A stretch of 64,000 nucleotides of DNA from positions 162,866 through 226,865 of the forward strand of contig CAZPCB010000001.1 of NCBI GenBank assembly GCA_964585065.1. The letters are read 5' to 3'. The first letter of the stretch is position 1. Each line of letters opens with the position of its first letter. The translations under genes and the position numbers were made by a program. This DNA comes from an uncultured Candidatus Saccharibacteria bacterium. GTDB lineage: Bacteria; Patescibacteriota; Minisyncoccia; SW-4-49-11. Positions 41,321 through 61,947 of this stretch are shown here, one piece after another. The notes beneath the pieces were generated by a model. It saw only the letters and a program-made list of their open reading frames with translations, was not told where the DNA came from and searched no databases.

Positions 41321-41321
41321 T

Positions 41322-43031
41322 ATGTCATCTCTCTTTTCTCAGAAAATGATATCGATACTCGGAATCTTTTTATTCGGATTTCTCTTTATATCACCACATA
41401 TTACCTATGCTGACAATTTGTATGGGCAGTCTTGTGGTACAACAAAATGTAGCGGAGCTGAAGTATGCCAAAAACAATATAGAGGAGTATTACCTATTGG
41501 TTCACAAAATGATGGTAATGCTACCTATACTTGTGTAAAACCCCAGAATTTAGAAGCTCCAGACAGCCCTTATAAAGGAGTACAGACAGCTTGCGGTGGG
41601 GTATTTCAAAAAGCATTTGGACTTGATTTAGGATCACTTACTGGTTCAGTATTAACAAATACCCTTCAGGCTGGATTAGGACAAATAAAAAACAGTTTGG
41701 GTCTAAATGGAAATGCAGTTGGTTTTGACTCAAGAGGAGCACAGGCTTTAAACTTTAATAATGTTGGATTAAACTGGAGTATTGATCCTACCAATCTTAT
41801 TAATACCGATGCTTCTTATTTTAAAGATTTTGTCCCAAAATGTGATAGTGCCTATAATAATATAAAAGGAGTTATTAATACCAATTTCCTGGTAGCTCCA
41901 CTACCTGTTGATATATTCAATCCCCTCCCCCTTCCAGTTAATGTTACCTCTCCCACTCCACTTCCAGTAATAGTAGTGGATGATTTAGCCCTCTATCAGC
42001 AAAAAGAATTAATTGATGCCCCTCTAGCCGCTCAACAAAAAGCAAAGACAATAGCGACCGTAAGCGATACTCTGAGATCACAAATTAGTAATGATAGTTT
42101 AATTCCAGATAATTATTTTGCTCTCAAAAGCTTAGGTTGGGAATTTGGAGCCCTATCCAAAGATACTGGAGTAGTATCTAAAGAAGCTATAGATAAATAT
42201 GGATCTTATCAGAATTTCTCATTAGATAAGAATAAGGATATAGAACAGTATTTTAAAGATTTACAAGATCAAAAAAGTCAATTGCCTGATGAGAATTTCA
42301 CACAAAACTGTGGTAATGTAAAAACAGAAGATGCAGGAGAAGTAAGTTTTGAATGTGCGCTCCTCGCCTTACAGCCTAATAATAATGCAAATGATATTGC
42401 CTTTAATATAGCACAAGTAGCTGCAGAAAAATCACAAAATGCCACCGAACTCCTTGATCAAGAAGTTCGTGATGGAAGTGGATATTTTGCAAAGACAGCA
42501 GATGGAGATAAGAACCCATTCACCAAAACTATTCAGACCCCAGGATCAAACATAGAATCTCTTACCAATAAAGTATTAGAGTCTACTGTGGATCAAGCTA
42601 TTACTGCATCTGGAGACAATTGTTTTGAGGCAATTCCTAATAATATACTTGAGGGGTCACTCAAACCCGTACTGACTCAAGGATTATTTGGAGTTAATAA
42701 TACTCTAGCATCAGTACAAAAAAATGTAACCTCTAATCCTGTTAACTCATTACAGAATCCTAGTGGTTTTGCTAATCAATTAACTTCTGGATTACAAGGT
42801 GCTATACCTGACCCTAATAAATTCTTCAAGTCTCTACAAAATTCATTATTACAAAATGTAACCAATGGATTATCTTGTGAGCTTAATAAGCAAGTTTCAG
42901 GGCTACTCAATGGAGCTCTCGGGAATATTAATATCCCAGGTATTGGTAATGTAAGTGGGGCATTAACGAATCAAGCCACAGGGGCTATAAATGGAGCTCT
43001 CAATAATGCTGTTAATGGCCTAATCCCATAA
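41322..43031 (+). CDS. Secreted 569-aa protein with 4-Cys N-terminal module and Gly/Asn/Leu-rich C-terminus
   Basis: Signal peptide MSSLFSQKMISILGIFLFGFLFISPHITYA. CGTTKCSGAEVC...TYTC. Repeated G..NGAL-like C-terminal motifs. Confidence 0.55.
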   Translation: MSSLFSQKMISILGIFLFGFLFISPHITYADNLYGQSCGTTKCSGAEVCQKQYRGVLPIGSQNDGNATYTCVKPQNLEAPDSPYKGVQTACGGVFQKAFGLDLGSLTGSVLTNTLQAGLGQIKNSLGLNGNAVGFDSRGAQALNFNNVGLNWSIDPTNLINTDASYFKDFVPKCDSAYNNIKGVINTNFLVAPLPVDIFNPLPLPVNVTSPTPLPVIVVDDLALYQQKELIDAPLAAQQKAKTIATVSDTLRSQISNDSLIPDNYFALKSLGWEFGALSKDTGVVSKEAIDKYGSYQNFSLDKNKDIEQYFKDLQDQKSQLPDENFTQNCGNVKTEDAGEVSFECALLALQPNNNANDIAFNIAQVAAEKSQNATELLDQEVRDGSGYFAKTADGDKNPFTKTIQTPGSNIESLTNKVLESTVDQAITASGDNCFEAIPNNILEGSLKPVLTQGLFGVNNTLASVQKNVTSNPVNSLQNPSGFANQLTSGLQGAIPDPNKFFKSLQNSLLQNVTNGLSCELNKQVSGLLNGALGNINIPGIGNVSGALTNQATGAINGALNNAVNGLIP

Positions 43032-43032
43032 T

Positions 43033-45180: not shown

Positions 45181-45186
45181 TTCACT

Positions 45187-46059
45187 ATGACACTCGCAGA
45201 TATCAAAAGTGAAGCTCATTCTCTCATTACCACAGATAATGTGCCAGTATCTCTTGAATTTGCGGAGAAATTAGAGAAATCTCTAATAGCGAATAATATT
45301 AAGGACTCTAATGCTGAGGCTTATCGCGAATTATCTAAGATTATATTCCAACTTTATGTAACGGCTATTCCTAATATATCGACTGAATTATTCCATAAAA
45401 TTATTTCTCTTAATATTATAGAGGCTTTGAGTCCTCTATGGCCTTCTGAGCGTGATTTTGCCGCCCGAATTGAGAGTAGATATTCGATTTATCCTGTGGA
45501 GCTCATCAAGGAAGAAATGCGAAAGGATTTACTCCCGCTTCTCAAACAAAATAATCAATTAATCGGTACCGTAGTATTACGCCTATCTCAAGAGCATCCT
45601 CAAGCAAAACCAAGTATTAGTAATTGGCTTGAATATTATGATAGAGTAACTGGTCTGGGGTCAGCTAACAGCTTTGAGCGTTCTCGTTTTATTAGTGGCG
45701 ACCCCATTGTACAAACCTTAAATCCTGAGGAAAAAGAGTCTCTGAGGAAAGTAGTTCAATTCTACGATTATCTTCAAACTGATGAGACAGTCCTCTATCA
45801 GGATATTTATAATACTGCTCCTCAATCAACTCTCAATACAATAACTCCTAATATTGACCCTAAGCCAATACAGACTACTCCCCTCCCCACACCTAAACCA
45901 GTTACTACGGTGAAAACTCCTGTCTCTACTCCCAATAATATTCCCCAAAATACAATTCCCCGAGCTCCAATACCTCGCCGTACTTCTGCTCCTGTAGTAT
46001 TGACAGCTAAACCAACTCCTATCCCTCAAAATCTTGTTAATCTCAAAAAACCAGAATAA
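45187..46059 (+). CDS. Soluble protein with Pro/Thr-rich C-terminal tail
   Basis: No TM. PKPIQTTPLPTPKPVTTVKTPVSTPNNIPQNTIPRAPIP. Confidence 0.5.
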   Translation: MTLADIKSEAHSLITTDNVPVSLEFAEKLEKSLIANNIKDSNAEAYRELSKIIFQLYVTAIPNISTELFHKIISLNIIEALSPLWPSERDFAARIESRYSIYPVELIKEEMRKDLLPLLKQNNQLIGTVVLRLSQEHPQAKPSISNWLEYYDRVTGLGSANSFERSRFISGDPIVQTLNPEEKESLRKVVQFYDYLQTDETVLYQDIYNTAPQSTLNTITPNIDPKPIQTTPLPTPKPVTTVKTPVSTPNNIPQNTIPRAPIPRRTSAPVVLTAKPTPIPQNLVNLKKPE

Positions 46060-46061
46060 CT

Positions 46062-46505
46062 ATGCAACAATATAATATTCCACAATTTATTGATTCTGAA
46101 GATAAAATTATTGGTCCTCTGACTATAAGGCAATTTGCATTCTTGGCAATTGGTGTGGTAATTGGAGGATTTTTATGGTATTTTAAACCTAATATTGGTG
46201 TTTTTATTATTAGCATACTTCCTGTTGCTGTAGCTACTTTTGCTTTTGCTTTTATCAAAATTAATGGCCAAAACTTTGATATATTTATTGTAAATGTGAT
46301 AGTATATATTCTGAAGCCAACTTTATTCCTTTGGTCTCGAGACATAGATACAACCCAATCAGTTATTAAAGTGTCTATTGAAAAGCGTAAAGCTTCATTT
46401 AGGCGAGAGACTCATGATTATAATCAATCTCGTGTAGAAGAAGTTGCCTGGACTCTAGATAGTTATGGTGAGAAAACCGTAATACCAGATATTGCAGCAG
46501 AATAG
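46062..46505 (+). CDS. Small 2-TM protein resembling the PrgI family (VirB3-like)
   Basis: N-terminal YNIPQFIDSEDKIIGPLTIRQFAFLAIG followed by two TM helices. Recalled similarity to PrgI-family N-termini, not verified. Confidence 0.4.
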   Translation: MQQYNIPQFIDSEDKIIGPLTIRQFAFLAIGVVIGGFLWYFKPNIGVFIISILPVAVATFAFAFIKINGQNFDIFIVNVIVYILKPTLFLWSRDIDTTQSVIKVSIEKRKASFRRETHDYNQSRVEEVAWTLDSYGEKTVIPDIAAE

Positions 46506-51156: not shown

Positions 51157-52758
51157 CTATAACATACTGTCACTAATAGGAATTCCTATCGGCACACTAT
51201 CAAGTCCCTCCGGAGATACAACAATAATATTATTCCATTTATACCCTAATCCTTCAAATACTCCTGGAGAGGTCACATAGCGTTTCTTACCCTCAGACAT
51301 GATATAAACTTCCCCTCTGCCCGAGGCTCTCAGAATCACTCCGTCACGAAAATATACAGCCGGTCCCTGCTGATAAGAATTCCATTCAGCCCCTGATACA
51401 TATACTAAATCCTTATAATTATATTGAGTATTGAATATTTCGGGACTTGGTATGGGGCGCCTTTTCCCCGCTTCCAAAACCTCTATTCCTGTTGGATTAT
51501 CTCGATTAACCAATAATGTTCCATCTGGATAGGGGCGAGATTGCATAATAGGTCCAATTGGATGAGATATAGCAAGAGTCCCATCAGCAATAATAGTAAT
51601 ATTATTCCACTTATAGCCTAAGGCCTCAAAAGTAACGGGGGATGGAATATGTCTTCTTTGCTGATTACTAATTACATATACATCAGGGTTATTCTTTTCT
51701 CTTACCAACATTCCTTCCCTAAATGTAAGAGCTGAAGCTAAAGGATAAGAATCCCACTCGGCACGTGTGACATCTAATACATCTTTCCAATTAAAACGAG
51801 AATTAAAAACATCAGGATTTACGAGAGGCCTAATACTCCCATTCTCGAGATAACCAACCCCCGTATCTGTTCTTAACAATGAACCATTGGGAAAGGTTCT
51901 AATATCCGTAGTATCTGGGAATAAGGCTAATTCAGTTGCATTAATACTAATCACATTTTTCCCTCCAATATTACCCGTAGGAGTTTTTATCCCATTTTGA
52001 ATAGTATAAAGACGACCATTATCATCTCGATACAGCGAATTATCATAATATTGATTCCACTCTTGAGCTCGATTCCGAAGCCAGCTCATATCTACCATAT
52101 TAGTATCTCCATTTCCAGCTTCTACAGCTCCATGATCAGTAAGTCGAAAGCCAGTATAATTAGAACTATATGCCTTAGTATAAAAATTCCAAATAGGTTC
52201 AGTCACATAATCAGTTGGGGCAATACTATTAGTTGAACTAAGCCATCCAGATAATTTAGCTAAAGATTGTTTCATAGCTTCTGGTACTGTTGCATAGCCA
52301 CTTCCATAGCGACCAATCAAAGAAACTCCTATACTTTGATAATTAAAGTTATCTCCCGTACGATTTACATAAAGATGAGCTCCTCTTACTCCATTTTGCC
52401 CCATTCTCCCCTGATAAATACTCCCATCGCGAGCAATTAGATAATTATACCCTATATCCCCCCAACCATTATTACGGGCATGTGTAGTGAATATTGAACG
52501 AATTATTTGTCTCGGGTCAAGAGAGTCACTATTAAAGTCAGCTAAAGCCGTATCATGTAATAATATTCTCTTTATCTGAAAAGTATTATTAGAATTTGGT
52601 GGCCAAGCATTGAGAGTATAGGTATTATCATCTGTCATTGCCCAAGTATTACGAGATTGTATATTGGGGGTATTCGCAAAAGTGGGTAGTGGGAATATTA
52701 AGGCTATTCCAAAAAAAATCACCCATAATATTGATCGCAAATATAATATCCCCCTCAT
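51157..52758 (-). CDS. Secreted N-acetylmuramoyl-L-alanine amidase (Amidase_2/PGRP fold) with four C-terminal ~55-aa repeats
   Basis: Signal peptide. LLHDTA...GWGDIGYNYLIARDGSIYQGR. Repeats of the same family as in the S8 protease. Confidence 0.75.
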   Translation of the reverse strand: MRGILYLRSILWVIFFGIALIFPLPTFANTPNIQSRNTWAMTDDNTYTLNAWPPNSNNTFQIKRILLHDTALADFNSDSLDPRQIIRSIFTTHARNNGWGDIGYNYLIARDGSIYQGRMGQNGVRGAHLYVNRTGDNFNYQSIGVSLIGRYGSGYATVPEAMKQSLAKLSGWLSSTNSIAPTDYVTEPIWNFYTKAYSSNYTGFRLTDHGAVEAGNGDTNMVDMSWLRNRAQEWNQYYDNSLYRDDNGRLYTIQNGIKTPTGNIGGKNVISINATELALFPDTTDIRTFPNGSLLRTDTGVGYLENGSIRPLVNPDVFNSRFNWKDVLDVTRAEWDSYPLASALTFREGMLVREKNNPDVYVISNQQRRHIPSPVTFEALGYKWNNITIIADGTLAISHPIGPIMQSRPYPDGTLLVNRDNPTGIEVLEAGKRRPIPSPEIFNTQYNYKDLVYVSGAEWNSYQQGPAVYFRDGVILRASGRGEVYIMSEGKKRYVTSPGVFEGLGYKWNNIIVVSPEGLDSVPIGIPISDSML

Positions 52759-52760
52759 AA

Positions 52761-54704
52761 TTAAGGCAAAGGTCCTACTGGAATTGACTGATCAATCATA
52801 AATCCATACTGCAATGTATCATTTGTAACTACCCCAAGAGCTAACATTGCCTCTGGAGAAAGTCCAGATACACGATTCGTAAATATAGCCGGTCCTGATT
52901 CCATAATTGTAGCTACCAATTTTTTTCCATTGGCGGGATTTGTCACCAAAACCTTACGGCCTCTATGCCAATTTTTAGCGGTATTATTAAAATCTGTACT
53001 ACGAGTACGTCCTCTCCATTGATCAGTAGCATATTCATAAACCTCTTGTACTGTACTTCCTGAATTATGAGATTTAGGAGAAGCTGCTATAGATGGACTA
53101 TCTACACCTCGCTGAGATACAATTAGACTATTTCCATCTTTACCACTATATGCAATAATTTCTCCATTTATAATAATCCAACCCGTATTAGGATAATCTG
53201 ACACATTAGCAAGAGGTATTCTATTGGCAGAAGTATCTATATTTTGAGTAAGCGTACTCGTAGCCTCATACCATCTTACATAATTCCAACGCATAGTAAT
53301 ATAATATTTTTCTTCTTCTACTGAGAATGGAGCATAACTAGAATTGAGACTTCCTCCTGGACATGATAAAGCAAATGCCCCCCCACTTTTCAATAATCCA
53401 TTTTGGGCTGAAAGTGGCGTAGAGGCTCTTCCATAATGATCACCACTTGTTTCATTACAATCGCGGGCAAGATGCTGTTCACGAGCTGTTCTACCACTTG
53501 TAGCTGGGATAGCATATCCGTCTAAACTAGCGGCTTGAATATCTGAGAGAGCAGATCCCATAGCATTAGAATTAAATTCATCTTCAGATACTGCTGTTAC
53601 ATTAGCCCAATTATATCCCCGGGCGGCAAATATTTCGGGACTTGGGATACCTCGTTTCAATTCTCCTTCAATTACATATACCCCTCCGCCAAAAGATATT
53701 AAAGCACCATTTCTAAATCCAACTCTTCCTGCCTTTGTATATTGATTTATAACACTATCTGGTAATCTCAGTACGGAATCCCAACTATATCCTTGACTTG
53801 CAAAAATTTTAGGACTAGGAATATATTGTAAGCTCCCATCATTAGCTACGCGATATATAGGCCCAGCAGTACCGATGAGAGATCCTTCTACATATCGTTT
53901 TACTGTATTAAAGGCTCCAGATTCAGGAATAATAGATAATTCAAAATCTGTAGCTCGCTTTACTTGTCCCCAATTAAGTCCATAGCTCTCAAAAACTGCA
54001 GGAGAAGTAATAGGCTGCCGCACATTATTCTGCATCATAAATACTCCTGTAGCACTAGATATTAATAACCCATCGGGATAAAATTCATTAGCTCCTTGGG
54101 GATATGTATTCAGATATGCCTCTGAGACATCAATCAGAGATTCCCAACGATATCTTGCTTGAAATATAAGAGGACTAGGAATATATCTTCTCTGCCCATT
54201 TTTAATCACATACACTTCCCCTCCTGGTCTTACCAATAAACTTCCATTGGGATGTTTGGAAGCTGTAGTTAAGCCAGGTCCCTGAGGCTGAGGAGCAAGT
54301 TCCGCATCACTTACTGCAATTACATTAGACCATTTATACCCCTTTTGAAGAAAAGTACTCGGAGAATCAATAGGCAATCTCTGCCCATCAGAAATGACAT
54401 ATACCGAACCTCCGTTAGATAATAATGATCCATCTCTATATGTCATTTGTGGACCATTGGGCAATGCATCAATTTCCGTCTGAGTAGTAACTACCAAATC
54501 ATCCCATCTAAATTGAGACCGAAGCATATTAGGAGACTCAATAGGGCGCTTTTGTCCATTATCTATATAATAAACTTTGGGGTTATTAGTAGATTTTAAT
54601 AATATTCCATTAGGAAAGCTTGGGCTACTCGCATAACTCATTACTGGGAATACCCATATCACACATAAACTCAATACTAGACTATATGTTAATTTTTTAT
54701 TCAT
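52761..54704 (-). CDS. Secreted protein: ~6 N-terminal copies of the same repeat, a Cys-containing middle, and a C-terminal RlpA-like double-psi beta-barrel domain
   Basis: Signal peptide. KVLVTNPANGKKLVATIMESGPAIFTNRVSGLSPEAMLALGV resembles RlpA/3D-domain DPBB. Confidence 0.6.
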   Translation of the reverse strand: MNKKLTYSLVLSLCVIWVFPVMSYASSPSFPNGILLKSTNNPKVYYIDNGQKRPIESPNMLRSQFRWDDLVVTTQTEIDALPNGPQMTYRDGSLLSNGGSVYVISDGQRLPIDSPSTFLQKGYKWSNVIAVSDAELAPQPQGPGLTTASKHPNGSLLVRPGGEVYVIKNGQRRYIPSPLIFQARYRWESLIDVSEAYLNTYPQGANEFYPDGLLISSATGVFMMQNNVRQPITSPAVFESYGLNWGQVKRATDFELSIIPESGAFNTVKRYVEGSLIGTAGPIYRVANDGSLQYIPSPKIFASQGYSWDSVLRLPDSVINQYTKAGRVGFRNGALISFGGGVYVIEGELKRGIPSPEIFAARGYNWANVTAVSEDEFNSNAMGSALSDIQAASLDGYAIPATSGRTAREQHLARDCNETSGDHYGRASTPLSAQNGLLKSGGAFALSCPGGSLNSSYAPFSVEEEKYYITMRWNYVRWYEATSTLTQNIDTSANRIPLANVSDYPNTGWIIINGEIIAYSGKDGNSLIVSQRGVDSPSIAASPKSHNSGSTVQEVYEYATDQWRGRTRSTDFNNTAKNWHRGRKVLVTNPANGKKLVATIMESGPAIFTNRVSGLSPEAMLALGVVTNDTLQYGFMIDQSIPVGPLP

Positions 54705-54737
54705 ATTTTAATATAATATTATATATTTATATAATAT

Positions 54738-54770
54738 AGTATATCATAAAATTATATATTTTGATATACT
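54738..54770. promoter_or_regulatory. 9-bp inverted repeat AGTATATCA-N15-TGATATACT in divergent promoter region (operator-like)
   Basis: Exact palindromic arms at 54738-54746 and 54762-54770 between the divergently transcribed RlpA-like and nitroreductase genes. Confidence 0.4.
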
Positions 54771-54801
54771 ACAACTGCAATCAAATAATCATAAAACCAT
54801 A

Positions 54802-55422
54802 ATGAAATCTATATTAGAAGCCCTCAATTGGCGCTATGCCACAGACAAATTCCTAGATACTCCTATCCCAGAGGATATATTACATACCATTATAGAGGCA
54901 GCTCGTCTCGCCCCTTCATCTATGAATTTTCAACCATGGAAATATATCTCTATACAATCTCCAGAAATTCGTAATCAAATATTCGAAGCTGGAGGGAAAC
55001 AAGAAGCCATCAATGCTCCTACCCTACTAGTACTCACCATACCCAATATTCTCACTGCGGAAAACGTAAATAATGTTGTTCTGGCTGCTGCTAAAGCTCG
55101 GAATGCCGATCCAGCTACTCTTGATGGATATCGTAATATGCTACAAGGCTTTATAGATACAACTGAACCTAATAAATTCTTTGATTGGAGTCGTAGACAA
55201 GCCTATATTTCACTCGGGATGCTATTACTTGCTGCCGCTCAACTCGAAGTGGATGCCGCTCCTATGGAAGGTTTTGATGCCACGAAAGTAACCGAGATAT
55301 TAGGGCTCAAAGATTATACCGCCGTCACCCTGATTGGACTTGGCTACCGCAGCCCAGAAGATGATCATCAAAGCTGGCCAAAAGTCCGATTTGATATAGA
55401 GGAAATTTTAGAGGTGAGATAG
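54802..55422 (+). CDS. Nitroreductase family protein
   Basis: RLAPSSMNFQPWKYISIQ ... typical ~200-aa nitroreductase. Confidence 0.8.
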   Translation: MKSILEALNWRYATDKFLDTPIPEDILHTIIEAARLAPSSMNFQPWKYISIQSPEIRNQIFEAGGKQEAINAPTLLVLTIPNILTAENVNNVVLAAAKARNADPATLDGYRNMLQGFIDTTEPNKFFDWSRRQAYISLGMLLLAAAQLEVDAAPMEGFDATKVTEILGLKDYTAVTLIGLGYRSPEDDHQSWPKVRFDIEEILEVR

Positions 55423-55430
55423 AACCTAAA

Positions 55431-55480
55431 AAAGAAAGAGCTTGATAAGCTCTTTCTTTTGTTTATTTTGGCTGTGTTTT
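55431..55480 (+). terminator. Rho-independent terminator of the nitroreductase gene
   Basis: aaagaaagagctt-gata-agctctttcttt followed by tgtttatttt. Confidence 0.75.
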
Positions 55481-55656
55481 TTGGACGAAGTTCGAACTTT
55501 TTTTGAGCAAAAACCCCAATAAGGAAGCGGGCAGGCAAAAATTTCTTCCCCCCAAACCCCTTCCTTTGTTCCCGCCTGCTTGGGCTTCGCCCCCAAAACT
55601 TTTCGGCGGACGGAATTTGAGGCTGTGCCAATTTCATTGGCGCGCCGCCTAAAATT

Positions 55657-58600
55657 TTAAACTTGTTTCGTGCCTCGACAGTATGGAAATTTTGAACAAC
55701 CATAAAATTTTCCATATCTGCCTTTGCGCAAAATCATTTTTGATCCGCACTTAGGACAGGTCTTATCACTCGAAACTGCAGGGCTATCTTTAATATTATC
55801 ACTCACAGACTTTTCAACCAAGGTATAGCCCTTGCAATGACAGCAAAATCGTCCGTATCCAGTAATTAAGTCTGGGTCTCTAAAATCTTTGTATTCCCTT
55901 ATTTCTTTACATTTCGGGCATTCTTTCATCTCGCCATTTTGCAAACCCTCAATCGTTTCGTGAATGTGACTAATTACATTATTTTTTACAACACCATTTT
56001 TAATCAAGTTGCCGATTCTTTCATTAAGATTTGAAATCGGATCGTTGCCAATGTTGAATTTGTTTATTCGCAAAAATTTATATCCATAGCTTTCCAATAC
56101 TTTTTGTCTATAAACATCTCCGTCGGTGTAATAATCTTGGTAATTAAATTCGTTTACCTCATCAACATCTTTGAAGTGTTCCCTAAATCCGTCATATTCA
56201 ATTATGACTTTGTGTTCTTGGTGGGTCTCATCCTTGAAGACTAACAAAAAATCAACTTTATAATTCGGGTGGTTATATGTTTTATCAAACTGTTTCAAAT
56301 ATTTACCAAGCTCAAATTGTGGAATAAATTCTATATTGTCTTTATTTTTCTTCCAGAAGTCAGTTTGATAAAACCAGTTCATAACCTCTGGTTCCATTTT
56401 TGACTTCTCATCAGCTTCGCTAATGCTTCGTTCTTTTTTCGCTTCGTTCAAAATAAAAGAGTAATGCCTTATTGCCTCACCAATTGAGCCGTTGTATTTA
56501 TCAATCGGCTTACTTAAAACAAAGTTCATCGTTTCTTTGGCACGACTAAAGCCAACATTTAATCTCTGGGCTTTTATTTTTCCGTCTTCTTCAATATCAA
56601 CATCGTTCAAATCTTTAATGAAAACACCCCACAAATGATCATCTTCTTCTGTTGCAACCATTGAATAATATATAATATCCCTTTCTTCACCTTGGCAGGT
56701 GTCGAAAGTCATAATTTTTAATTTTAACTTGTCGTAAAAATAATCCTTTTCTGGAATTTTGCTTATTAACTCGACAAGCAATTTTTGCTGATTGGTGTGG
56801 GGTGTAATAATTCCAACACTTTGATTGCTATCAATTTCTTTTAATTTTTTCAGTTCGGAAATTATAAATTCAACTTCAAGCGTGTTGGTATTTTGTGCTA
56901 ATTCTTTTTTCCCGTCATGCTTAACAAAAGAAAACTTAATAACGTCGTCAATAGCTTTCCCTCTAATTTTCATCACTTGTAAGCTGTCTCGATAAAAATA
57001 TTTGTTAGAGTAGGAAATAATCTCTTTATACCCTCTAAAATGTTTTAGCAGTTGAGCGTTATAATTTGTTATAAATTCAAAAAACTCAAGAATAGAAGTT
57101 TTGATATTAAACTTCCCGAGTTTTACGAGGTTTATTCCTTCGCTTGAAACATTTTTAACAAAACAATCCCTGAGATTATTTAAATATTCTCTGTTTGTAT
57201 CGGTGCGAGCTTGAGCAGTTTTTACATTACTAAATTGTTTTTTGTCTCCAAGAATCAAAATCTTTTTTGCACGCAACAAAGCAGGAAATGCTTGGGCAAT
57301 GCTAACCTGCGAAGCCTCATCAATAATCACAAGGTCAAAAATCTCTGGCTCAAGCGGTATGTATTCCGCATAATCTCTTATTCCTGCCAATATACAAGGG
57401 AATGCTTCTTTAAGCTTCAAAAATTCATCTTTCGGGAATCTTTGTTTTGTTCGGATTATATCTCTTAGCGCTTTTGCAGTCGCTTTATTGTTTTGATAAA
57501 AATCAATCAATCGTCCGTCCAAAAGAAAAGTCATTTGAGCGGTAACAAGTGCCTCAATATTTTTCTTTTGACCAGCATAATTAAGTGTGGGAATACTATT
57601 AAAATCTTTCTCAACTTTCTGCTTCAAATTTATAAACCTGATCAATGTGTCAAAGTCGAGATCTGAAATTTTTACTAATTCATTTGAGCAAAAAGTTTTA
57701 AAAGAACCCAAATCAATTTTAAGTTTTTTTATTGTATTCGGGTATTTTGGCAAATTTGTATTTAAGAATTTTAAATCATCGCCAATTTGCATTAGGTTGT
57801 TTAATACACCTAAAAGCGAATCGTCATTTATTGTCTGATGAATAAATCTTAAATAATCAAAATTGATCTGATATTTTTCGTCCAATTTTGCCTTTAGTTC
57901 TTCGGCAAATTGATAAATTCCTAAAACTATTTTCAAATCCTCTAAATTTTTATGCGCTTCAATTTCCGAAGTTATGCTAAAAGATTTTTTAAATTCCTTG
58001 TCTAAATTTTCAATTTTTTCTTTTTTAAACGCATAGCCGAAAAGCCAATTTTTCTCTTTTTCGTAATTGCTTATAAAATCTCTTAATTTTTCTAACGAGG
58101 GCTCGTCAAAATTATCGAATGTTGACAATAGCACCAAATTATTGGTGTAAACTTCTTTAATTTTAGCAACAGAAGAAGAAAGGATATTTAATAACCACAA
58201 ATATTTTTGAAAGTTGGATATGTCTTTGAAGTCATTGATTGAAAAATTGAGCAATTCGAAAAGTTTTGCTTCTTTTTCTTTCTCGTCCTGATCAATAATA
58301 AGTTTATCTTTTAGCGACAAAAATATTTTTTTAAACTCTTCAAGCTCAATCGCTGATTCCGTTTGATTTAGAACCTCTTCAATTTCAACGGGGAAACCCT
58401 TATTTACATAATAGGATTCCAAGTCAAATAACTCGTGAATTTCTTTTAAATCAATTTCCTCATAAGCCAATATTTCGGCTTGTAAATCTTCCTTAAGTGT
58501 ATTGCCTGATTTTTCAATATTGCTCTCAAGTGTTCCATAATCTTTTTTAACGGCTCGATAATGCGTTTTAATATTTTCTACAGCTGTGGTTGCTAAGATT

Positions 58601-60237
58601 TGGCTGTATGTGCTTCCTGTTTTTCCGAGTCTCAAAATTGGATTTTGAAAATTTTTATCGAGGCGAACTTTATTCATTGTCTCGGTAATTTTTTCTTCTA
58701 CTACATCAAGGGCTTCTTTTTTATCTGACAAAACTAAAACTGATTGATTTTTCAGAATAGAATCAAAAACAATTGCGGTTATTGTATGACTTTTACCTGT
58801 TCCTGGGGGTCCCTCAACAGTTATGTATTTACAATCGTCTTTTCTAATCGCAGATAAAATTTGAAGTTGTTCGCTATTTAGCGGAATTGGACTATTGAAA
58901 ACTAAACGATCGCTTGTTTCAGTATCGTCCCATGATTCTTCAACGCTTGGATTAAAGGGCTGAGGATTTTTATGAATAAAATCCTCAATCAATTTATTGA
59001 AAGCTTCCCCCAAAACACTGTCGCCCGCCATGAGCAATTTTAATATTTCTTCGTAATCATTGACTAACGCCTCGTCTGATTTATCAAATAAAGCCAAGTA
59101 GCAATTATTTGAAGCTCTGACAAGAAGACTTTTTGCAATTTGTTGCTCGGAATTGTTTATATCTATGCTTTTATCAAGTTCAAACAAATTTGTTATTTCA
59201 CTCAATATTTCGCTGACCACATCTCTAAAATCGTTTTGATGTTGGGCTAAATAGATTATTCTTTCCGATATTATTTTTAAATTTCTCTTTTTACCTTTTT
59301 CTTGATTATATTCTTGAGTTATATACTCAAGAGCTTTTTTGTTTATATACACCTGCGAATCAAACTCAATTGTCAAAACTTCGTTTTGTTTTTCAATCCC
59401 AAATGGAATGTAAAAAATTGGGAATTTGGCATTATTGAAAGTTATATCGCAAAAATATAAATAAAATTCTTGTTTATCTAAAATGGTTCTGTTTCTCTCC
59501 ATTTCATATATTTCTGCGAACAAATCTCCGACTTGAAAACTTTCAAAGAATGAATGAATATTTAATTTGATGTCGGCAAGCTCAAAAACATCTTTCAATT
59601 GTTTTGAAATATCAACTTTTTCTTTTGCTAGCAAAAGTTTTACAACTTCAGAAATTTTGTTTTCCAGAGAGGAAGATAAAACTGCGGTTAGTTCTTCCTC
59701 CATTAAATAAATATTGTTTTCGTCACCAAGGTTTAAATTCTCTAAAGGTTTTTCAATATTGCTTACAAACGGCAAAACTAAATCTGTTTTTAGAATTTTG
59801 GCGGCAGCTTCAAGGGAAGTATTTAACGCTTGATCATATTCTTTTTTGTATAGAGTGGCTGATTTTTCTATTTCCTCGGCGATTTGTTCAAGGATTTTGG
59901 TAATTTGTTTGCTAGTTATTTTTTCCGTCTGCAATTTAACTAAATCCAATAAATTTTTGGGAATATTTGTCCTATAAACCCCTTTTGAAATTGTATTGAG
60001 AGTATTTTTATCAAATGCGTGGTCTATCGCTTTATTTACGAGATTATTAAAAGAAGGATATTTATTGAGATTTAATCCGACAAGCAAATTATTACTGCTC
60101 CTAAATTGAATAATTCTTTTTGGATTTTTTCTTTTATGGAAATCTGTTTCCAAGAAATCCATAAAATATTTGGCAACTTCTTTTATAAATACCAAACCAT
60201 TTTTATCTTCGATTTTAATATTTTCTTTAGTTGCCAT
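55657..60237 (-). CDS. 1526-aa multidomain protein: ~450-aa N-terminal region (DUF4011-like), Upf1/Dna2-like SF1 helicase, DUF559/Vsr-like PD-(D/E)XK endonuclease, zinc ribbon and topoisomerase-type C4 zinc finger
   Basis: Walker A VEGPPGTGKSHTITAIV. Motif II LVIIDEASQV...LILGDKKQ. Motif V/VI MTFDTCQGEERDIIYYS...NVGFSRAK. DUF559-like VDFLLVF...KVIIEYDGFREHF...LESYGYKFLRI. C-terminal CPKCGSKMILRKGRYGKFYGCSKFPYCRGT. Confidence 0.85.
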   Translation of the reverse strand: MATKENIKIEDKNGLVFIKEVAKYFMDFLETDFHKRKNPKRIIQFRSSNNLLVGLNLNKYPSFNNLVNKAIDHAFDKNTLNTISKGVYRTNIPKNLLDLVKLQTEKITSKQITKILEQIAEEIEKSATLYKKEYDQALNTSLEAAAKILKTDLVLPFVSNIEKPLENLNLGDENNIYLMEEELTAVLSSSLENKISEVVKLLLAKEKVDISKQLKDVFELADIKLNIHSFFESFQVGDLFAEIYEMERNRTILDKQEFYLYFCDITFNNAKFPIFYIPFGIEKQNEVLTIEFDSQVYINKKALEYITQEYNQEKGKKRNLKIISERIIYLAQHQNDFRDVVSEILSEITNLFELDKSIDINNSEQQIAKSLLVRASNNCYLALFDKSDEALVNDYEEILKLLMAGDSVLGEAFNKLIEDFIHKNPQPFNPSVEESWDDTETSDRLVFNSPIPLNSEQLQILSAIRKDDCKYITVEGPPGTGKSHTITAIVFDSILKNQSVLVLSDKKEALDVVEEKITETMNKVRLDKNFQNPILRLGKTGSTYSQILATTAVENIKTHYRAVKKDYGTLESNIEKSGNTLKEDLQAEILAYEEIDLKEIHELFDLESYYVNKGFPVEIEEVLNQTESAIELEEFKKIFLSLKDKLIIDQDEKEKEAKLFELLNFSINDFKDISNFQKYLWLLNILSSSVAKIKEVYTNNLVLLSTFDNFDEPSLEKLRDFISNYEKEKNWLFGYAFKKEKIENLDKEFKKSFSITSEIEAHKNLEDLKIVLGIYQFAEELKAKLDEKYQINFDYLRFIHQTINDDSLLGVLNNLMQIGDDLKFLNTNLPKYPNTIKKLKIDLGSFKTFCSNELVKISDLDFDTLIRFINLKQKVEKDFNSIPTLNYAGQKKNIEALVTAQMTFLLDGRLIDFYQNNKATAKALRDIIRTKQRFPKDEFLKLKEAFPCILAGIRDYAEYIPLEPEIFDLVIIDEASQVSIAQAFPALLRAKKILILGDKKQFSNVKTAQARTDTNREYLNNLRDCFVKNVSSEGINLVKLGKFNIKTSILEFFEFITNYNAQLLKHFRGYKEIISYSNKYFYRDSLQVMKIRGKAIDDVIKFSFVKHDGKKELAQNTNTLEVEFIISELKKLKEIDSNQSVGIITPHTNQQKLLVELISKIPEKDYFYDKLKLKIMTFDTCQGEERDIIYYSMVATEEDDHLWGVFIKDLNDVDIEEDGKIKAQRLNVGFSRAKETMNFVLSKPIDKYNGSIGEAIRHYSFILNEAKKERSISEADEKSKMEPEVMNWFYQTDFWKKNKDNIEFIPQFELGKYLKQFDKTYNHPNYKVDFLLVFKDETHQEHKVIIEYDGFREHFKDVDEVNEFNYQDYYTDGDVYRQKVLESYGYKFLRINKFNIGNDPISNLNERIGNLIKNGVVKNNVISHIHETIEGLQNGEMKECPKCKEIREYKDFRDPDLITGYGRFCCHCKGYTLVEKSVSDNIKDSPAVSSDKTCPKCGSKMILRKGRYGKFYGCSKFPYCRGTKQV

Positions 60238-60241
60238 ATTT

Positions 60242-60445
60242 CTACTTAATTAAATCATCAACACCAACTTCAAGCGCCTTGGCGATCTTAGTTAGTGTTT
60301 CAATAGTTGGGTTTGTATTTACTCCGTTTTCAACCTTAACAATGGTGTTAAGCGACAAATCGGCGAGGCGAGCAATCTTTTCGAGAGATAGCCCCTTTTT
60401 AGCCCGCAGTTTCTTTAAGTTTTCAGTAATTTTATTATTTGACAT
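60242..60445 (-). CDS. XRE-family helix-turn-helix transcriptional regulator (67 aa)
   Basis: LKKLRAKKGLSLEKIARLADLSLNTIVKVENG Cro/C1-type HTH. Stop 4 nt before the helicase start codon. Confidence 0.8.
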   Translation of the reverse strand: MSNNKITENLKKLRAKKGLSLEKIARLADLSLNTIVKVENGVNTNPTIETLTKIAKALEVGVDDLIK

Positions 60446-60583
60446 ATCTTTCGTAATTGTATAACATTATAGTATATAGAATATAATATAAAAGTTTTTT
60501 TGTTGATACTATAATGATAACGAATTTAATCAATTTTGTAAATGGATACTTAGGGAGTTCCTTAGCGTTGCCCGCGAATGGTT

Positions 60584-60610
60584 TGGCGGAGAGAAAGGGA
60601 TTACGAACCC
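60584..60610 (-). repeat. 26/27-nt direct repeat of the tRNA-Ser(GCT) 3' end (att-like), 150 bp downstream of the tRNA
   Basis: tggcggagagaaagggatt(a)cgaaccc at 60584-60610 versus 60761-60786. Intervening DNA carries hairpins ttgaaacc-gagt-ggtttcaa, gcaaat-ccc-atttgc, cgggaaac-ggga-gtttcccg and a T-arm-like palindrome ggattcgaatcc. Confidence 0.7.
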
Positions 60611-60760
60611 ATCGCAAATGGGATTTGCTCCTTGAAACCACTCGGTTTCAATACATCCTCCACGGGAAACTCCCGTTTCCCGACCCCTTCCCTGGATTCG
60701 AATCCCTTTTTACTAACTCCCAGAAATTAAAAACAGGGATATTATCCCTATTCTTAATTT

Positions 60761-60851
60761 TGGCGGAGAGAAAGGGATTCGAACCCTTGATAAGTTTTAC
60801 CCTATGCCACGTTAGCAGTGTGGTGCTTTCGACCAGCTCAGCCATCTCTCC
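60761..60851 (-). tRNA. tRNA-Ser (anticodon GCT), type II, CCA encoded
   Basis: rc: GGAGAGATGGCTGAGCTGGTCGAAAGCACCACACTGCTAACGTGGCATAGGGTAAAACTTATCAAGGGTTCGAATCCCTTTCTCTCCGCCA. Confidence 0.85.
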
Positions 60852-60988
60852 AGAATTAAATTAACTATTATAGTTTACCTAAATTTTGACAATTTTGCAA
60901 CTTATCGCATATACAAAGCTTTATCTCTAATCTAATATTAACCCTATTTCTCATGCTATAATAAAATAAATAGATAAAATAAAAAGTT

Positions 60989-61837
60989 GTGAATATATTT
61001 AAAGGAAGGAAAATAGTAATAGCGACAGCCCATAATAAAGAAGAGGTCATAGCCCCTCTACTTGAAGAAGCTTTGGGTGTGGAAGTTATTATCCCTAAGA
61101 ATTTTAATTCAGATAAATTTGGGACTTTTACCAGAGAGATAAAGAGAGCTGGAGATCAGCTAGAAGCTGCAAGAGCAAAAGTCTATGCCGCTATGGAGCA
61201 AGAAGGAGTAGATTTAGGAATAGCAAGCGAAGGGAGTTTTGGCTCAGATCCATCAACCCCATTCATACAATCTAATCTTGAATTAATATTATTTGTAGAT
61301 AAAAAGAATAAGTATGAAATTAAGGGACATTATAGAACTTCAAAAACAAATATGTCCGGAGTATATATCTCAAACATACAAGAAGCTTTAGACTTTGCCA
61401 AAAAAATTGGATTTCCTCAACATGGTATTATCGTGAGAAAAAGTGACAAAAATCATACTAAAATTACAAAAGATATTCATACTGAAGCTGATTTAAAAGA
61501 AAAAGTAACTCAATTACTTTCATCCCCTTTTACCAAAAAAGTTTTTCTCGAAACTGATATGCGAGCTCACAAGAATCCTACCCGTATGCAGGCCATTGAA
61601 CTTGCAACCAAAGATTTAATCAAAAATATTACATCTCGCTGTCCTCACTGCTCTGCATCTGGATTTGCTGTGATAAATTATGAAAAGGGACTACGCTGTG
61701 CACATTGTAAATTCCCTACAGATATCCCCCTTTATGATATATATCAATGTAATATATGTGGATATAAAGAAAAGGAATTAATTACCAAATATGGTGATTT
61801 TGCCAATCCTCAATATTGTGACATTTGTAATCCCTAA
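60989..61837 (+). CDS. Hypothetical protein with C-terminal double zinc ribbon
   Basis: 282 aa. CPHCSASG...CAHCKF and CNICGYKE...CDICNP. Confidence 0.45.
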   Translation: MNIFKGRKIVIATAHNKEEVIAPLLEEALGVEVIIPKNFNSDKFGTFTREIKRAGDQLEAARAKVYAAMEQEGVDLGIASEGSFGSDPSTPFIQSNLELILFVDKKNKYEIKGHYRTSKTNMSGVYISNIQEALDFAKKIGFPQHGIIVRKSDKNHTKITKDIHTEADLKEKVTQLLSSPFTKKVFLETDMRAHKNPTRMQAIELATKDLIKNITSRCPHCSASGFAVINYEKGLRCAHCKFPTDIPLYDIYQCNICGYKEKELITKYGDFANPQYCDICNP

Positions 61838-61947
61838 GTGAGAATGATAATTTACATTACAAAACAAATACAATACCACTATCCCCTATACTGATAAGAC
61901 AAGAGATTCTATTCATCGGTGTCATACACAGCTATACCATCATCATG

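What the first reader, a model, noticed from the sequence alone, without database searches (positions are those of the whole stretch)
55657..60445. XRE regulator plus giant helicase-nuclease-zinc-finger fusion: candidate novel defence or DNA-processing cassette next to a tRNA att-like site
A 67-aa Cro/C1-type HTH gene ends 4 nt before a 1526-aa ORF. That ORF combines a ~450-aa uncharacterised N-terminal region, a complete Upf1/Dna2-like SF1 helicase core (GPPGTGKS, DEASQ, QGEERD motifs), a DUF559/Vsr-like PD-(D/E)XK endonuclease (IIEYDG..H), and a C-terminal zinc ribbon plus a topoisomerase-I-type C4 zinc finger like those of the resident topA. The cassette lies between a GC-rich noncoding segment (55480-55656) and tRNA-Ser(GCT), which carries a downstream repeat of its own 3' end. 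Regulator plus nuclease-helicase, tRNA adjacency and compositional oddity are the hallmarks of horizontally acquired antiphage islands (cf. single-protein nuclease-helicase immunity such as Nhi). To my knowledge this domain order with a Topo-type zinc finger is not a described system.
Basis: partly seen in the sequence, partly recalled or inferred. Interest (0 to 1): 0.8.

Follow-up and report, generated by a model that had tools for sequence, protein, structure and literature searches.

The report
Mobile helicase-nuclease cassette, recently inserted
A 5.1-kb two-gene unit (a small repressor plus a giant helicase-nuclease of an uncharacterised family) is a recent, precisely bounded insertion next to a tRNA-like sequence in a tiny-genome bacterium, and it travels in a widespread cassette vehicle that mostly carries restriction-type defence genes.

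Summary
In detail: a 67-aa HTH gene (60242-60445, -) ends 4 nt before a 1526-aa ORF (55657-60237, -). The ORF has an Upf1-like SF1 helicase core, a Vsr/DUF559-fold nuclease (weak by sequence, confirmed by fold) and a Topo-I-type zinc ribbon. The expected DUF4011 is absent; the N-terminal 450 aa is a family-specific module with no fold match.

Main result: near-identical strains (98-99.6%) have an empty site. The cassette is a 5,109-bp insertion (55473-60581) flanked by TTTGGC, placed exactly after the CCA-AA end of a ~105-nt tRNA-like sequence, and it encodes no recombinase. A 92% relative carries an AlwI-type R-M system nearby in the same variable region.

Family members are 35-96% identical across many phyla. 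Their commonest neighbours are large serine recombinases.

The GC-rich segment is part of the element. It holds a conserved hairpin with covarying stem, found on more than 120 metagenome contigs. Inverted pairs of it bracket diverse cargo, often R-M genes, 229-598 nt upstream of serine-recombinase genes.

Best reading: a self-regulated, horizontally mobile helicase-nuclease defence (or exclusion) cassette, mobilised in trans. Mobility is shown; defence is inferred. It is a new variant of a known kind.

The parts
55473..60581 (-). The whole inserted element (5,109 bp): promoter/operator, HTH gene, helicase-nuclease gene and the GC-rich terminal module.
   Evidence: L083, L084 and L081 (98-99.6% identical) and L087/L088 (92%) join window ~55472 directly to 60582. 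L082 is 100% identical and occupied.
55467..55472 (.). TTTGGC, one copy of the 6-bp direct repeat flanking the insert (GCCAAA in gene sense).
   Evidence: The base-level junction alignment shows a single copy in the empty sites.
60582..60587 (.). TTTGGC, the second copy of the 6-bp repeat. It is the CCA-AA end of the tRNA-like target.
60242..60445 (-). 67-aa Cro/C1-type HTH regulator, controller-protein-like.
   Evidence: Pfam HTH_3, 56.8 bits. PADLOC capH 1.7e-12 and R-M 'Control_protein' 8e-10. Homologues precede the helicase in only 7 of 74 loci.
60446..60581 (-). Element-borne promoter/operator region. The -35/-10-like site TTTACA-17-TATCAT lies at 60542..60514, overlapping an imperfect palindrome at 60455-60526 (repeated CATTATAGTAT motif).
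   Evidence: 10/12 promoter match; inverted repeat I2. The region is conserved in L002, L003 and L005. Operator function is inferred.
58882..60237 (-). N-terminal module (aa 1-452), family-specific, fold unassigned.
56518..58881 (-). Upf1/Dna2-like SF1 helicase core (aa 453-1240). Walker A is at 476-483 and DEASQ at 973-977, with a large, mostly helical insertion (~aa 540-960) between them. QGEERD is at 1182-1187.
   Evidence: Pfam AAA_11 and AAA_12. PDB profile hits to UPF1, IGHMBP2, Sen1 and DNA2. Motifs invariant.
56038..56340 (-). Vsr/DUF559-like PD-(D/E)XK nuclease domain (~aa 1300-1400; invariant D1329, E1347, D1349, H1354).
55834..55920 (-). CxxC...CxxC zinc ribbon (C1440, C1443, C1465, C1468, all invariant).
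   Evidence: generic zinc-ribbon hits.
55663..55764 (-). Topoisomerase-I-type C4 zinc ribbon (aa 1492-1525).
   Evidence: Pfam Zn_ribbon_Top1, 47.5 bits, found in 26/26 members. PDB TopA 2.6e-08.
55465..55656 (-). GC-rich terminal module of the element (49% GC). Its outer terminus ...GTTCGAACTTCGTCCAAAAAACACAGCCAAA is conserved in L001, L003 and L005.
   Evidence: In L003 the homologous 312-nt module occurs as perfect inverted repeats on both sides of the cassette.
55527..55575 (.). Conserved hairpin with a G-rich loop (GGAAGGGGTTTGGGGGGAA in gene sense).
   Evidence: More than 120 metagenome contigs carry it. Among 95 unique copies, four outer stem pairs switch G-C to A-U with at least 94% pairing. 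It lies 229-598 nt upstream of 24 serine-recombinase genes.
60582..60690 (-). tRNA-like structured sequence (~105 nt, ending CUCUCCGCCA). This is the insertion target.
   Evidence: Shares its 3' 27 nt with tRNA-Ser. Folds with a 10-bp acceptor-like stem and three arms, z -2.17. 98% conserved in the empty-site relative L087. Not called by ARAGORN or Rfam.
60761..60851 (-). tRNA-Ser(GCT), 177 bp from its partial copy. It lies outside the element.

Best explanation
The region 55473-60581 is a discrete, horizontally mobile gene cassette.

What it carries:
- its own promoter and palindromic operator;
- a controller-type HTH repressor;
- one giant effector protein;
- a GC-rich structured terminal module.

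The effector joins four parts: a family-specific N-terminal module, an Upf1-like SF1 helicase with a large helical insertion, a Vsr-fold PD-(D/E)XK nuclease, and two C-terminal zinc ribbons, one of them the single-strand-binding type found in topoisomerase I.

Most likely mechanism (inferred): this is a single-protein nucleic-acid immunity or exclusion system. The zinc ribbons and N-terminal module load the enzyme on single-stranded or structured nucleic acid of an invading phage or plasmid. The helicase translocates along it using ATP. The fused nuclease cuts it. The HTH represses the operon so that the nuclease is not over-expressed when the cassette enters a new cell, as controller proteins do for restriction enzymes.

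Mobility: the cassette encodes no recombinase. It was inserted exactly 3' of a tRNA-like ...CCGCCA-AA end, with a 6-bp repeat. The most likely agent is a recombinase supplied in trans. The best candidate is the large serine recombinase family whose elements carry the same hairpin module and the same kind of cassettes. This would resemble recombinase-less pseudo-SCC elements moved by Ccr.

Shown: the insertion, its exact boundaries, the domain content, the horizontal spread and the association with the vehicle.
Inferred: defence function, substrate, repressor role and the identity of the mobilising enzyme.
For: Insertion:
- Empty sites exist in strains 98-99.6% identical, and an occupied 100% identical contig exists.

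Foreign origin:
- DNA homology in all 80 loci stops at the cassette ends.
- GC3 is about 3 sd above host genes.
- Protein identity of 35-96% does not follow taxonomy, including on long contigs: Elusimicrobia 105 kb, Acidobacteriota 2.3 Mb, Methanoperedens, Gammaproteobacteria chromosome.

Mobile-element context:
- large serine recombinase in 19 loci;
- tyrosine integrase in 6;
- ParB-methylase in 7;
- AAA_25 in 6.

Vehicle:
- Perfect 312-nt inverted repeats bracket HTH + helicase in L003.
- The hairpin module is on more than 120 metagenome contigs, and 21 inverted pairs bracket 1.4-5.9 kb of cargo.
- The stem covaries.
- The hairpin sits at a fixed position upstream of recombinase genes.

Defence by association:
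- R-M genes are the commonest identifiable cargo of the vehicle.
- L087 holds an AlwI R-M pair in the adjacent variable region.
- The HTH matches R-M control proteins and capH.
- The helicase half matches PDC-S37, MkoA/C, Hhe and ProA.

Intact enzyme:
- All helicase and nuclease motifs are invariant.
- The nuclease fold is confirmed.

Precedents: single helicase-nuclease defence proteins Nhi, Hna, HmaA and Hhe (PMC11232893), and the CnuH-Vsr fusion (PMC11090510).
Against: - No functional data exist.
- Scores against every curated defence family are far below the membership cut-offs: ProA 133 against 1500 bits, Hhe 82 against 2000. They also cover only the second helicase lobe.
- The vehicle carries plainly non-defence cargo too: GH5 cellulase, TrpRS, ABC permease. 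Carriage is therefore weak evidence of function.
- The HTH accompanies the helicase in only 7 of 74 loci.
- No recombinase is present in the 64-kb window.
- A 6-bp repeat is longer than the 2-bp crossover of serine recombinases.
- The window copy has only one terminal module, and its left end sits inside what is a hairpin in L003 and L005. A non-canonical or illegitimate integration cannot be excluded.
- Some cross-phylum labels rest on short MAG contigs that could be mis-binned.
Confidence: 0.55

Rival explanations
1. The giant protein is the element's own mobility enzyme, making this a self-mobilising, homing-type or otherwise novel helicase-nuclease element. The nuclease would cut at tRNA-like 3' ends, and the helicase and zinc ribbons would process the ends for insertion.
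For: - The insert encodes no recombinase yet is precisely bounded.
- In L031 and L020 the helicase gene alone is bracketed by direct repeats of a tRNA 3' end (29 and 21 nt), and in L007 by a 26-nt repeat.
- A tRNA lies within 1 kb upstream on the same strand in the window and in L025, L031, L057, L064 and L069.
- Conservation across phyla is very high.
Against: - The ends are heterogeneous: inverted repeats in some loci, direct repeats in three, nothing detectable in most of 68 loci.
- The same hairpin vehicle carries many unrelated cargos that lack this protein.
- Recombinases are the commonest neighbours.
- No locus shows more than one copy.
- No known transposase or integrase chemistry uses this domain set.
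- The Vsr fold is shared by many non-mobility nucleases.
Confidence: 0.12
2. The pair is an addiction (toxin-antitoxin-like) module that stabilises the mobile elements carrying it, rather than an anti-phage system. The nuclease-helicase would be the toxin and the HTH its transcriptional antidote.
For: - The HTH matches antitoxin and repressor families such as HipB-type, Y4mF and RstR.
- The two genes are tightly coupled, with a 4-nt gap.
- The pair is carried on integrative elements and on one plasmid.
Against: - The HTH is absent from about 90% of loci with the helicase, so the helicase is tolerated without it.
- A 67-aa HTH has no obvious toxin-neutralising domain.
- Near-identical strains have lost or never had the cassette without visible scars.
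Confidence: 0.15
3. It is a housekeeping DNA repair or replication helicase-nuclease of the host (Dna2- or AddAB-like), and its location is incidental.
For: - The helicase core resembles Dna2, Upf1 and IGHMBP2.
- Its GC content is close to that of the host.
- The Priestia plasmid copy lies beside DinB-like and YolD-like repair genes.
Against: - It is absent from strains 98-99.6% identical.
- The pattern scan confirmed only 141 matching stretches in 185,579 species genomes, a lower bound.
- There is no synteny anywhere.
- It is associated with mobile elements.
Confidence: 0.03

Closest known systems
CnuH of Type III-B CoCoNuT systems (PMC11090510)
   Same: Upf1-like SF1 helicase with a large helical insertion after Walker A, fused directly to a Vsr-like PD-(D/E)xK nuclease. 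Zinc ribbons are common in that family. It is a predicted nucleic-acid-targeting immunity protein.
   Different: CoCoNuTs are defined by McrB/McrC-like CnuB and CnuC partners and coiled-coil proteins, and none is adjacent here. The N-terminal module differs (wHTH/Sul7s-like there, a unique 450-aa module here). The Topo-type zinc ribbon is not described there. Direct sequence comparison could not be done because no CnuH sequence was available to the tools.
Hhe (DUF4011 helicase + Vsr endonuclease, single-gene anti-phage system)
   Same: A single very large protein: N-terminal extension, then an AAA_11/AAA_12 Upf1-like helicase, then a Vsr/DUF559-type nuclease. Found in defence contexts.
   Different: No DUF4011 match in any of 27 members. 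The NCBIfam Hhe score is 81.7 against a cut-off of 2000, and the PADLOC Hhe hit covers only aa 947-1240. This protein has extra zinc ribbons.
ProA, PDC-S37 and Mokosh MkoA/MkoC (PADLOC and NCBIfam models)
   Same: These are the best-scoring defence models. They share the second RecA lobe of the helicase (aa ~945-1240).
   Different: The matches are partial: ProA 132.7 bits against a cut-off of 1500, PDC-S37 137.7 bits over 267 of 1550 profile positions. The effector and N-terminal domains differ.
Nhi, Hna and HmaA single-protein helicase-nuclease defences (PMC11232893)
   Same: The same logic: one polypeptide couples a helicase sensor or motor to a PD-(D/E)XK-type nuclease effector.
   Different: The helicase families differ (DUF2075 SF1 for Nhi; SF2 for Hna and HmaA), as do the domain order and size (610-1150 aa against 1526 aa). 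No sequence relationship was detected.
SCC / pseudo-SCC and Enterococcus cassette chromosome elements (serine-recombinase Ccr-mobilised cassettes; PMC6222049, PMC10581047)
   Same: Cargo cassettes bounded by repeats and inserted at the 3' end of a conserved RNA-related gene. They are mobilised by large serine recombinases. Recombinase-less derivatives and tandem arrays exist.
   Different: The target here is a tRNA-like 3' end rather than rlmH. The boundary module is a 100-400-nt GC-rich structured repeat with a conserved hairpin. The host range is CPR and other uncultured lineages. No experimental link between the recombinase and the module exists.
Integron gene cassettes (attC hairpin + IntI)
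   Same: The window unit has the topology of ORFs followed by one structured, hairpin-forming site at the 3' end, and it is inserted without its own recombinase. In L132, successive modules are each bounded by such repeats. Defence genes are frequent cargo.
   Different: The associated recombinase is a large serine recombinase, not an IntI tyrosine recombinase. The modules are longer than attC and lack the R/L box pattern. The pairs are inverted, not direct. No attI or Pc arrangement is present.
Restriction-modification controller (C) proteins
   Same: A small HTH_3 protein encoded immediately upstream of a nuclease gene, with a palindrome over its own promoter. It matches PADLOC 'Control_protein' at 8e-10.
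   Different: No methyltransferase is present. C-box spacing and function were not tested.

Membership tests
Hhe | N-terminal DUF4011 domain | tested here: not met
   Pfam scan of 27 diverse N-terminal regions at E<=1 gave no DUF4011 hit. The N-terminal profile finds only 540 clusters, all of this family.
Hhe | Whole-protein score above the curated equivalog cut-off (NF042953, 2000 bits) | tested here: not met
   81.7 bits, covering aa 943-1239 only.
Hhe | Upf1-like AAA_11/AAA_12 helicase followed by a Vsr/DUF559 nuclease | tested here: met
Hhe | Protects against phage when expressed | not testable with these tools
   Needs an experiment.
ProA (NF058533) | Whole-protein score above 1500 bits | tested here: not met
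   132.7 bits, covering aa 945-1238.
Mokosh (MkoA/MkoC) | MkoA-type helicase with a PLD-nuclease partner or fusion | tested here: not met
   There is only a partial helicase match. No PLD domain appears in Pfam. The neighbours are an HTH, a tRNA and a nitroreductase.
PDC-S37 (PADLOC candidate) | Full-length match to the 1550-position profile | tested here: not met
   137.7 bits. The best stretch aligns aa 957-1240 to profile positions 928-1194 only.
CoCoNuT Type III-B | Upf1-like helicase with a large helical insertion after Walker A, fused to a Vsr-like nuclease | tested here: met
   Walker A at 476-483, DEASQ at 973-977, with an insertion between them. Vsr fold. The family description is from PMC11090510.
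CoCoNuT Type III-B | Conserved association with McrB-like GTPase (CnuB) and McrC-like (CnuC) genes | tested here: not met
   The insert holds only the HTH and helicase genes. No McrBC-like cluster appears among recurrent neighbours in 80 loci.
CoCoNuT Type III-B | Sequence orthology to CnuH | not tested
   No CnuH sequence was available to the tools.
Vsr/DUF559 PD-(D/E)XK nucleases | Vsr-like fold with conserved acidic and His catalytic residues | tested here: met
tRNA-integrating genomic island (integrase-borne) | Element bracketed by direct repeats, one of which is the 3' end of an intact tRNA | tested here: not met
   The insert is flanked only by TTTGGC. It abuts a tRNA-like partial copy, not the intact tRNA-Ser, which lies 177 bp away. 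The feature is met in L031 and L020.
tRNA-integrating genomic island (integrase-borne) | Element encodes its own integrase | tested here: not met
   tblastn with serine and tyrosine recombinases found no hit in the 64-kb window.
TIR-bounded transposon | Terminal inverted repeats at both ends of this copy | tested here: not met
   The window has only the right-hand module. The left end stops at ~60577-60581. The feature is met in L003 (312 nt, 100%), L005 and L052, and probably in L002 and L037.
Integron cassette | attC site with R/L boxes and an IntI tyrosine recombinase | tested here: not met
   The associated recombinases are Resolvase + Recombinase + Zn_ribbon_recom. The module is 190-400 nt and the pairs are inverted.
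R-M controller (C) protein | Small HTH upstream of the nuclease gene, with a palindromic operator at its promoter | tested here: inconclusive
   Profile match at 8e-10. A palindrome at 60455-60526 overlaps a 10/12 promoter match. Binding was not tested, and the HTH is present in only 7/74 loci.

The most novel reading that the evidence does not exclude
The GC-rich hairpin module and the large serine recombinases that sit 229-598 nt from it may form a previously undescribed cassette-capture and exchange system of uncultured small-genome lineages. It would be integron-like in logic but serine-recombinase-based. It would move recombinase-less cassettes (R-M systems, this helicase-nuclease, even a tRNA synthetase) between genomes and into tRNA-like 3' ends. 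On this reading the window shows one such cassette caught just after insertion.
Probability: 0.25. Interest if true: 0.8.

Novelty: new variant of a known kind. Interest (0 to 1): 0.62.

Why it matters
Single-polypeptide helicase-nuclease immunity is a growing class. This family (540 clusters at 50% identity) falls below the membership cut-off of every curated defence model tested. It has a unique N-terminal module and a topoisomerase-type zinc ribbon, and it spreads between bacterial and archaeal phyla at up to 96% identity. That makes it a concrete, testable candidate for a new defence protein active in CPR and DPANN-type organisms, whose immunity is poorly known.

The occupied and empty alleles in near-identical strains give base-exact element boundaries, which is rare for uncultured lineages.

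The associated hairpin module next to serine-recombinase genes may mark a general route by which these reduced genomes exchange accessory and defence genes.

Tried and rejected
1. DUF4011 in the N-terminus: no hit in 27 members.
3. Known RNA in the GC-rich segment or the tRNA-like repeat: Rfam found nothing above chance. The folding energy of the window module is not exceptional, z -0.24 to -1.73.
4. tRNA-end repeat as one of two att sites bracketing the cassette: rejected. It lies between the tRNA and the cassette and is present in the empty sites.
5. A second inverted module upstream of the HTH in the window: absent.
6. Short direct repeats flanking the gene as a general rule: only 3 of 68 loci exceed shuffled controls.
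7. Element termini as a true tRNA 3' mimic: GTTCGAA...CCA spans 29 nt against 24 nt in a tRNA, so this was judged unconvincing.
8. Recombinase in the window: none.
9. Phage carriage: no real family member in 50,697 phage records, and no hairpin motif in viral contigs.
10. The exact protein is not on record in the assembly index.
12. Long inverted repeats that reach contig ends (L164 1,718 nt, L157 758 nt, L002 127 nt, L037 144 nt) are treated as possibly assembler-limited or as walk-through artefacts. They are not taken as true lengths.
Full report
**1. Observation**

The window is AT-rich (about 33% GC). It holds a bacterial 23S rRNA gene, topA and other core genes. Close relatives of its nitroreductase gene are labelled Parcubacteria or Patescibacteria in public records.

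The reported ORFs exist as described:
- a 1526-aa ORF at 55657-60237 (-);
- a 67-aa ORF at 60242-60445 (-), 4 nt upstream;
- tRNA-Ser(GCT) at 60761-60851 (-).

A 21-nt exact copy of the tRNA 3' end lies at 60582-60602.

Pfam supports the following:
- HTH_3 for the small protein;
- AAA_11 and AAA_12 (Upf1/Dna2-type SF1 helicase) for the large one;
- Zn_ribbon_Top1 above threshold at aa 1492-1525.

A PDB profile search hits UPF1, IGHMBP2, Sen1 and DNA2 over the helicase core only.

**2. Domains**

The Vsr-like PD-(D/E)XK assignment therefore stands. D1329, E1347, D1349 and H1354 are invariant.

*N-terminal 450 aa.* This region is not DUF4011.
- No Pfam family matches any of 27 members, and there is no PDB sequence hit.
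- A profile search of 1.84 billion representatives finds 540 clusters. All are N-termini of 1400-1700-aa proteins or fragments of them.

*Helicase layout.* Between Walker A (476-483) and DEASQ (973-977) lies a large insertion. This is the layout described for CnuH helicases of CoCoNuT systems, and in Type III-B the CnuH is fused to a Vsr-like nuclease (PMC11090510).

*Curated defence models.* All match only the second helicase lobe and fall far below their cut-offs:
- ProA, 133 of 1500 bits;
- Hhe, 82 of 2000 bits;
- PDC-S37 and MkoA/MkoC, partial matches.

**3. The cassette is a recent, precise insertion**

The flanking nitroreductase gene has 100%- and 95%-identical relatives on public contigs.
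- L082 is 100% identical to window 51865-56478 and is occupied.
- L081, L083 and L084 are 98-99.6% identical, and L087/L088 are 92% identical. All of them join window ~55472 directly to 60582.

At base level:
- The empty site reads ...TTTATTTTGGCGGAGAG....
- The occupied site has TTTGGC at 55467-55472 and again at 60582-60587.
- These bound a 5,109-bp insert (55473-60581).

In gene sense, the element sits immediately after ...CUCUCCGCCA-AA. That is the end of a ~105-nt tRNA-like sequence which:
- shares its 3' 27 nt with tRNA-Ser;
- folds with a 10-bp acceptor-like stem and three arms (z -2.2);
- is 98% conserved in the empty-site relative.

The tRNA-end repeat is therefore the target, not an att partner bracketing the island.

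The insert encodes no recombinase, and the whole window has none.

The region between nitroreductase and dCMP deaminase varies between relatives:
- L087 holds an AlwI-type restriction enzyme plus methylase.
- L085 holds HSDR_N_2 and bPH/SHOCT genes.
- The window holds a DUF6671 gene.

**4. Spread**

Homologues are 63-96% identical over the full length in records labelled Moranbacteria, Daviesbacteria, WOR-1, Syntrophaceae, Zixibacteria, Elusimicrobia, Pedobacter, Aenigmarchaeota and others.

A scan of 185,579 species genomes confirmed 141 matching stretches, of which 80 loci were kept. They range down to 35% identity and include megabase contigs of Acidobacteriota and Gammaproteobacteria, and Methanoperedens. 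Some labels rest on short MAG contigs and may be mis-binned.

In every locus, DNA similarity to the window stops at the cassette.

One member lies on a Priestia megaterium plasmid. There are none in phage records.

Composition differs mildly from the host.

**5. Context**

Recurrent neighbours within 6 kb:
- large serine recombinases in 19 loci, often abutting a tRNA;
- tyrosine integrases in 6;
- ParB-methylases in 7;
- AAA_25 replication proteins in 6.

Homologues of the HTH precede the helicase in only 7 of 74 loci.

The helicase gene alone is bracketed by direct repeats in three loci:
- by repeats of a tRNA 3' end in L031 (29 nt, two mismatches) and L020 (21 nt);
- by a 26-nt repeat in L007.

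**6. The GC-rich segment is part of a vehicle**

*Inverted repeats around the cassette.*
- In L003, perfect 312-nt inverted repeats bracket exactly HTH + helicase inside a 74-kb contig.
- L005 and L052 also have flanking inverted repeats. L002 and L037 end in inverted repeats of about assembler k-mer length.
- The window keeps only the right-hand module, 55465-55656, with a conserved outer terminus.

*The hairpin.*
- The module contains a hairpin with a conserved G-rich loop.
- Among 95 unique copies, four outer stem pairs lying outside the searched pattern switch G-C to A-U with at least 94% pairing.
- Contigs often end at the motif.

*Cargo.* Twenty-one inverted pairs bracket 1.4-5.9 kb of cargo. 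Only one of them carries this helicase. Identified cargo includes:
- N4/N6 and C5 methylases, with HNH or MamI nucleases alongside;
- a LexA-S24-methylase fusion;
- a GH5 cellulase;
- a TrpRS;
- an ABC permease.

*Link to recombinases.* The hairpin lies 229-598 nt upstream of 24 serine-recombinase genes, always outside the pair.

**7. Interpretation**

*Shown:*
- a discrete mobile cassette with base-exact ends;
- an intact helicase-nuclease;
- wide horizontal spread;
- carriage in a repeat-bounded, recombinase-associated vehicle rich in R-M genes.

*Inferred:* the protein is a single-polypeptide immunity or exclusion effector.
- The zinc ribbons and N-terminal module would load it on foreign single-stranded or structured nucleic acid.
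- The helicase would translocate.
- The Vsr-fold nuclease would cut.

The HTH matches R-M control proteins at 8e-10. It sits behind an element-borne promoter-like site that overlaps a palindrome, so it would restrain expression.

Insertion was probably catalysed in trans. The 6-bp repeat and the single, truncated left end leave the mechanism open.

*Rivals:*
- Self-mobilising element: supported by the integrase-less tRNA-end inserts and the homing-endonuclease-like fold; weakened by the heterogeneous ends and the shared vehicle.
- Addiction module.
- Housekeeping enzyme: refuted by the empty sites.

**8. Verdict**

The protein family is a new variant of the helicase-nuclease defence class. It is closest in layout to Type III-B CnuH and to Hhe, but it meets the membership criteria of neither.

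The vehicle is the least expected part and deserves its own study.

Noticed in passing
window 60582-60690 (-): A ~105-nt tRNA-like structured sequence ending CUCUCCGCCA. It has a 10-bp acceptor-like stem and three arms (z -2.17) and is 98% conserved in a 92%-identity relative. ARAGORN and Rfam do not call it. It could be a degraded tRNA-Ser duplicate, a relic att site or a small RNA.
   Followed up: partly
window 60852-61947; L087 10934-15400; L085 10622-16216: The stretch between tRNA-Ser/nitroreductase and dCMP deaminase is a second variable hotspot. The window has a DUF6671 gene (60989-61837). L087 has RE_AlwI + N6_N4 methylase. L085 has an epimerase, HSDR_N_2, bPH_3/SHOCT and other genes.
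   Followed up: partly
L089-L208 (metagenome contigs); window 55527-55575: A GC-rich hairpin with loop GGA(A/G)GGGG..TGGGGGGA and a covarying stem occurs on more than 120 contigs. It often lies at contig ends, and it sits 229-598 nt upstream of large serine recombinase genes. It may be a recombination site or some other structured signal of a cassette system.
   Followed up: partly
L132 1-10140: Three successive modules are each bracketed by their own inverted repeats (11-125/1701-1815; 1812-2090/4340-4618; 6649-6801/8193-8348). Two serine-recombinase genes, 80% identical and in inverted orientation, lie at the ends.
   Followed up: no
L003 1378-2985, L004 5092-6693, L017 4228-5925, L021 4943-6574, L023 6380-8263: The 3' ends of large serine recombinase genes abut, or appear to run into, tRNA genes (Ser, Glu, Gln, Ser, Asn). 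This suggests tRNA-targeting serine integrases in these lineages.
   Followed up: no
L031 9884-14647; L020 9320-14679; L007 2018-7184: The helicase gene alone, with no HTH and no integrase, is bracketed by direct repeats. In L031 a 29-nt repeat includes the last 12 nt of tRNA-Ala. In L020 a tRNA-like 3' end, AATCCCACCCCCGGAGC, occurs four times. In L007 there are several 24-26-nt repeats.
   Followed up: partly
L002 5113-6588; L101 2633-3160; L037 428-640: Lineage-specific additions occur inside the repeat-bounded unit: a 491-aa ORF with a weak PDDEXK_9 hit (L002), a 175-aa zinc-ribbon protein (L101), and an N-terminal zinc-ribbon extension of the helicase in place of an HTH gene (L037).
   Followed up: partly
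L174 578-1552: A class I tRNA synthetase (W/Y type, TrpRS-like) is the sole cargo of a 1.4-kb inverted-repeat-bounded cassette. This would be a mobile copy of a housekeeping enzyme.
   Followed up: no
L184 453-3014: A MamI-type restriction endonuclease lies next to a fusion of the LexA DNA-binding domain, an S24 peptidase and an N6/N4 methylase, inside an inverted-repeat-bounded cassette. This may be an SOS-responsive R-M system.
   Followed up: no
window 41265-46505; L087 1-1869: Genes matching TrbL_3 and PrgI (type IV secretion or conjugation-like) lie about 10 kb from the cassette and are syntenic in the relative. This was not examined.
   Followed up: no
L003 1141-1213 and 11821-11893: A 73-nt direct repeat (84% identical, itself hairpin-forming) may mark the ends of a ~10.7-kb island. 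That island would contain tRNA-Ser(tga), the serine recombinase and the repeat-bounded helicase cassette.
   Followed up: partly
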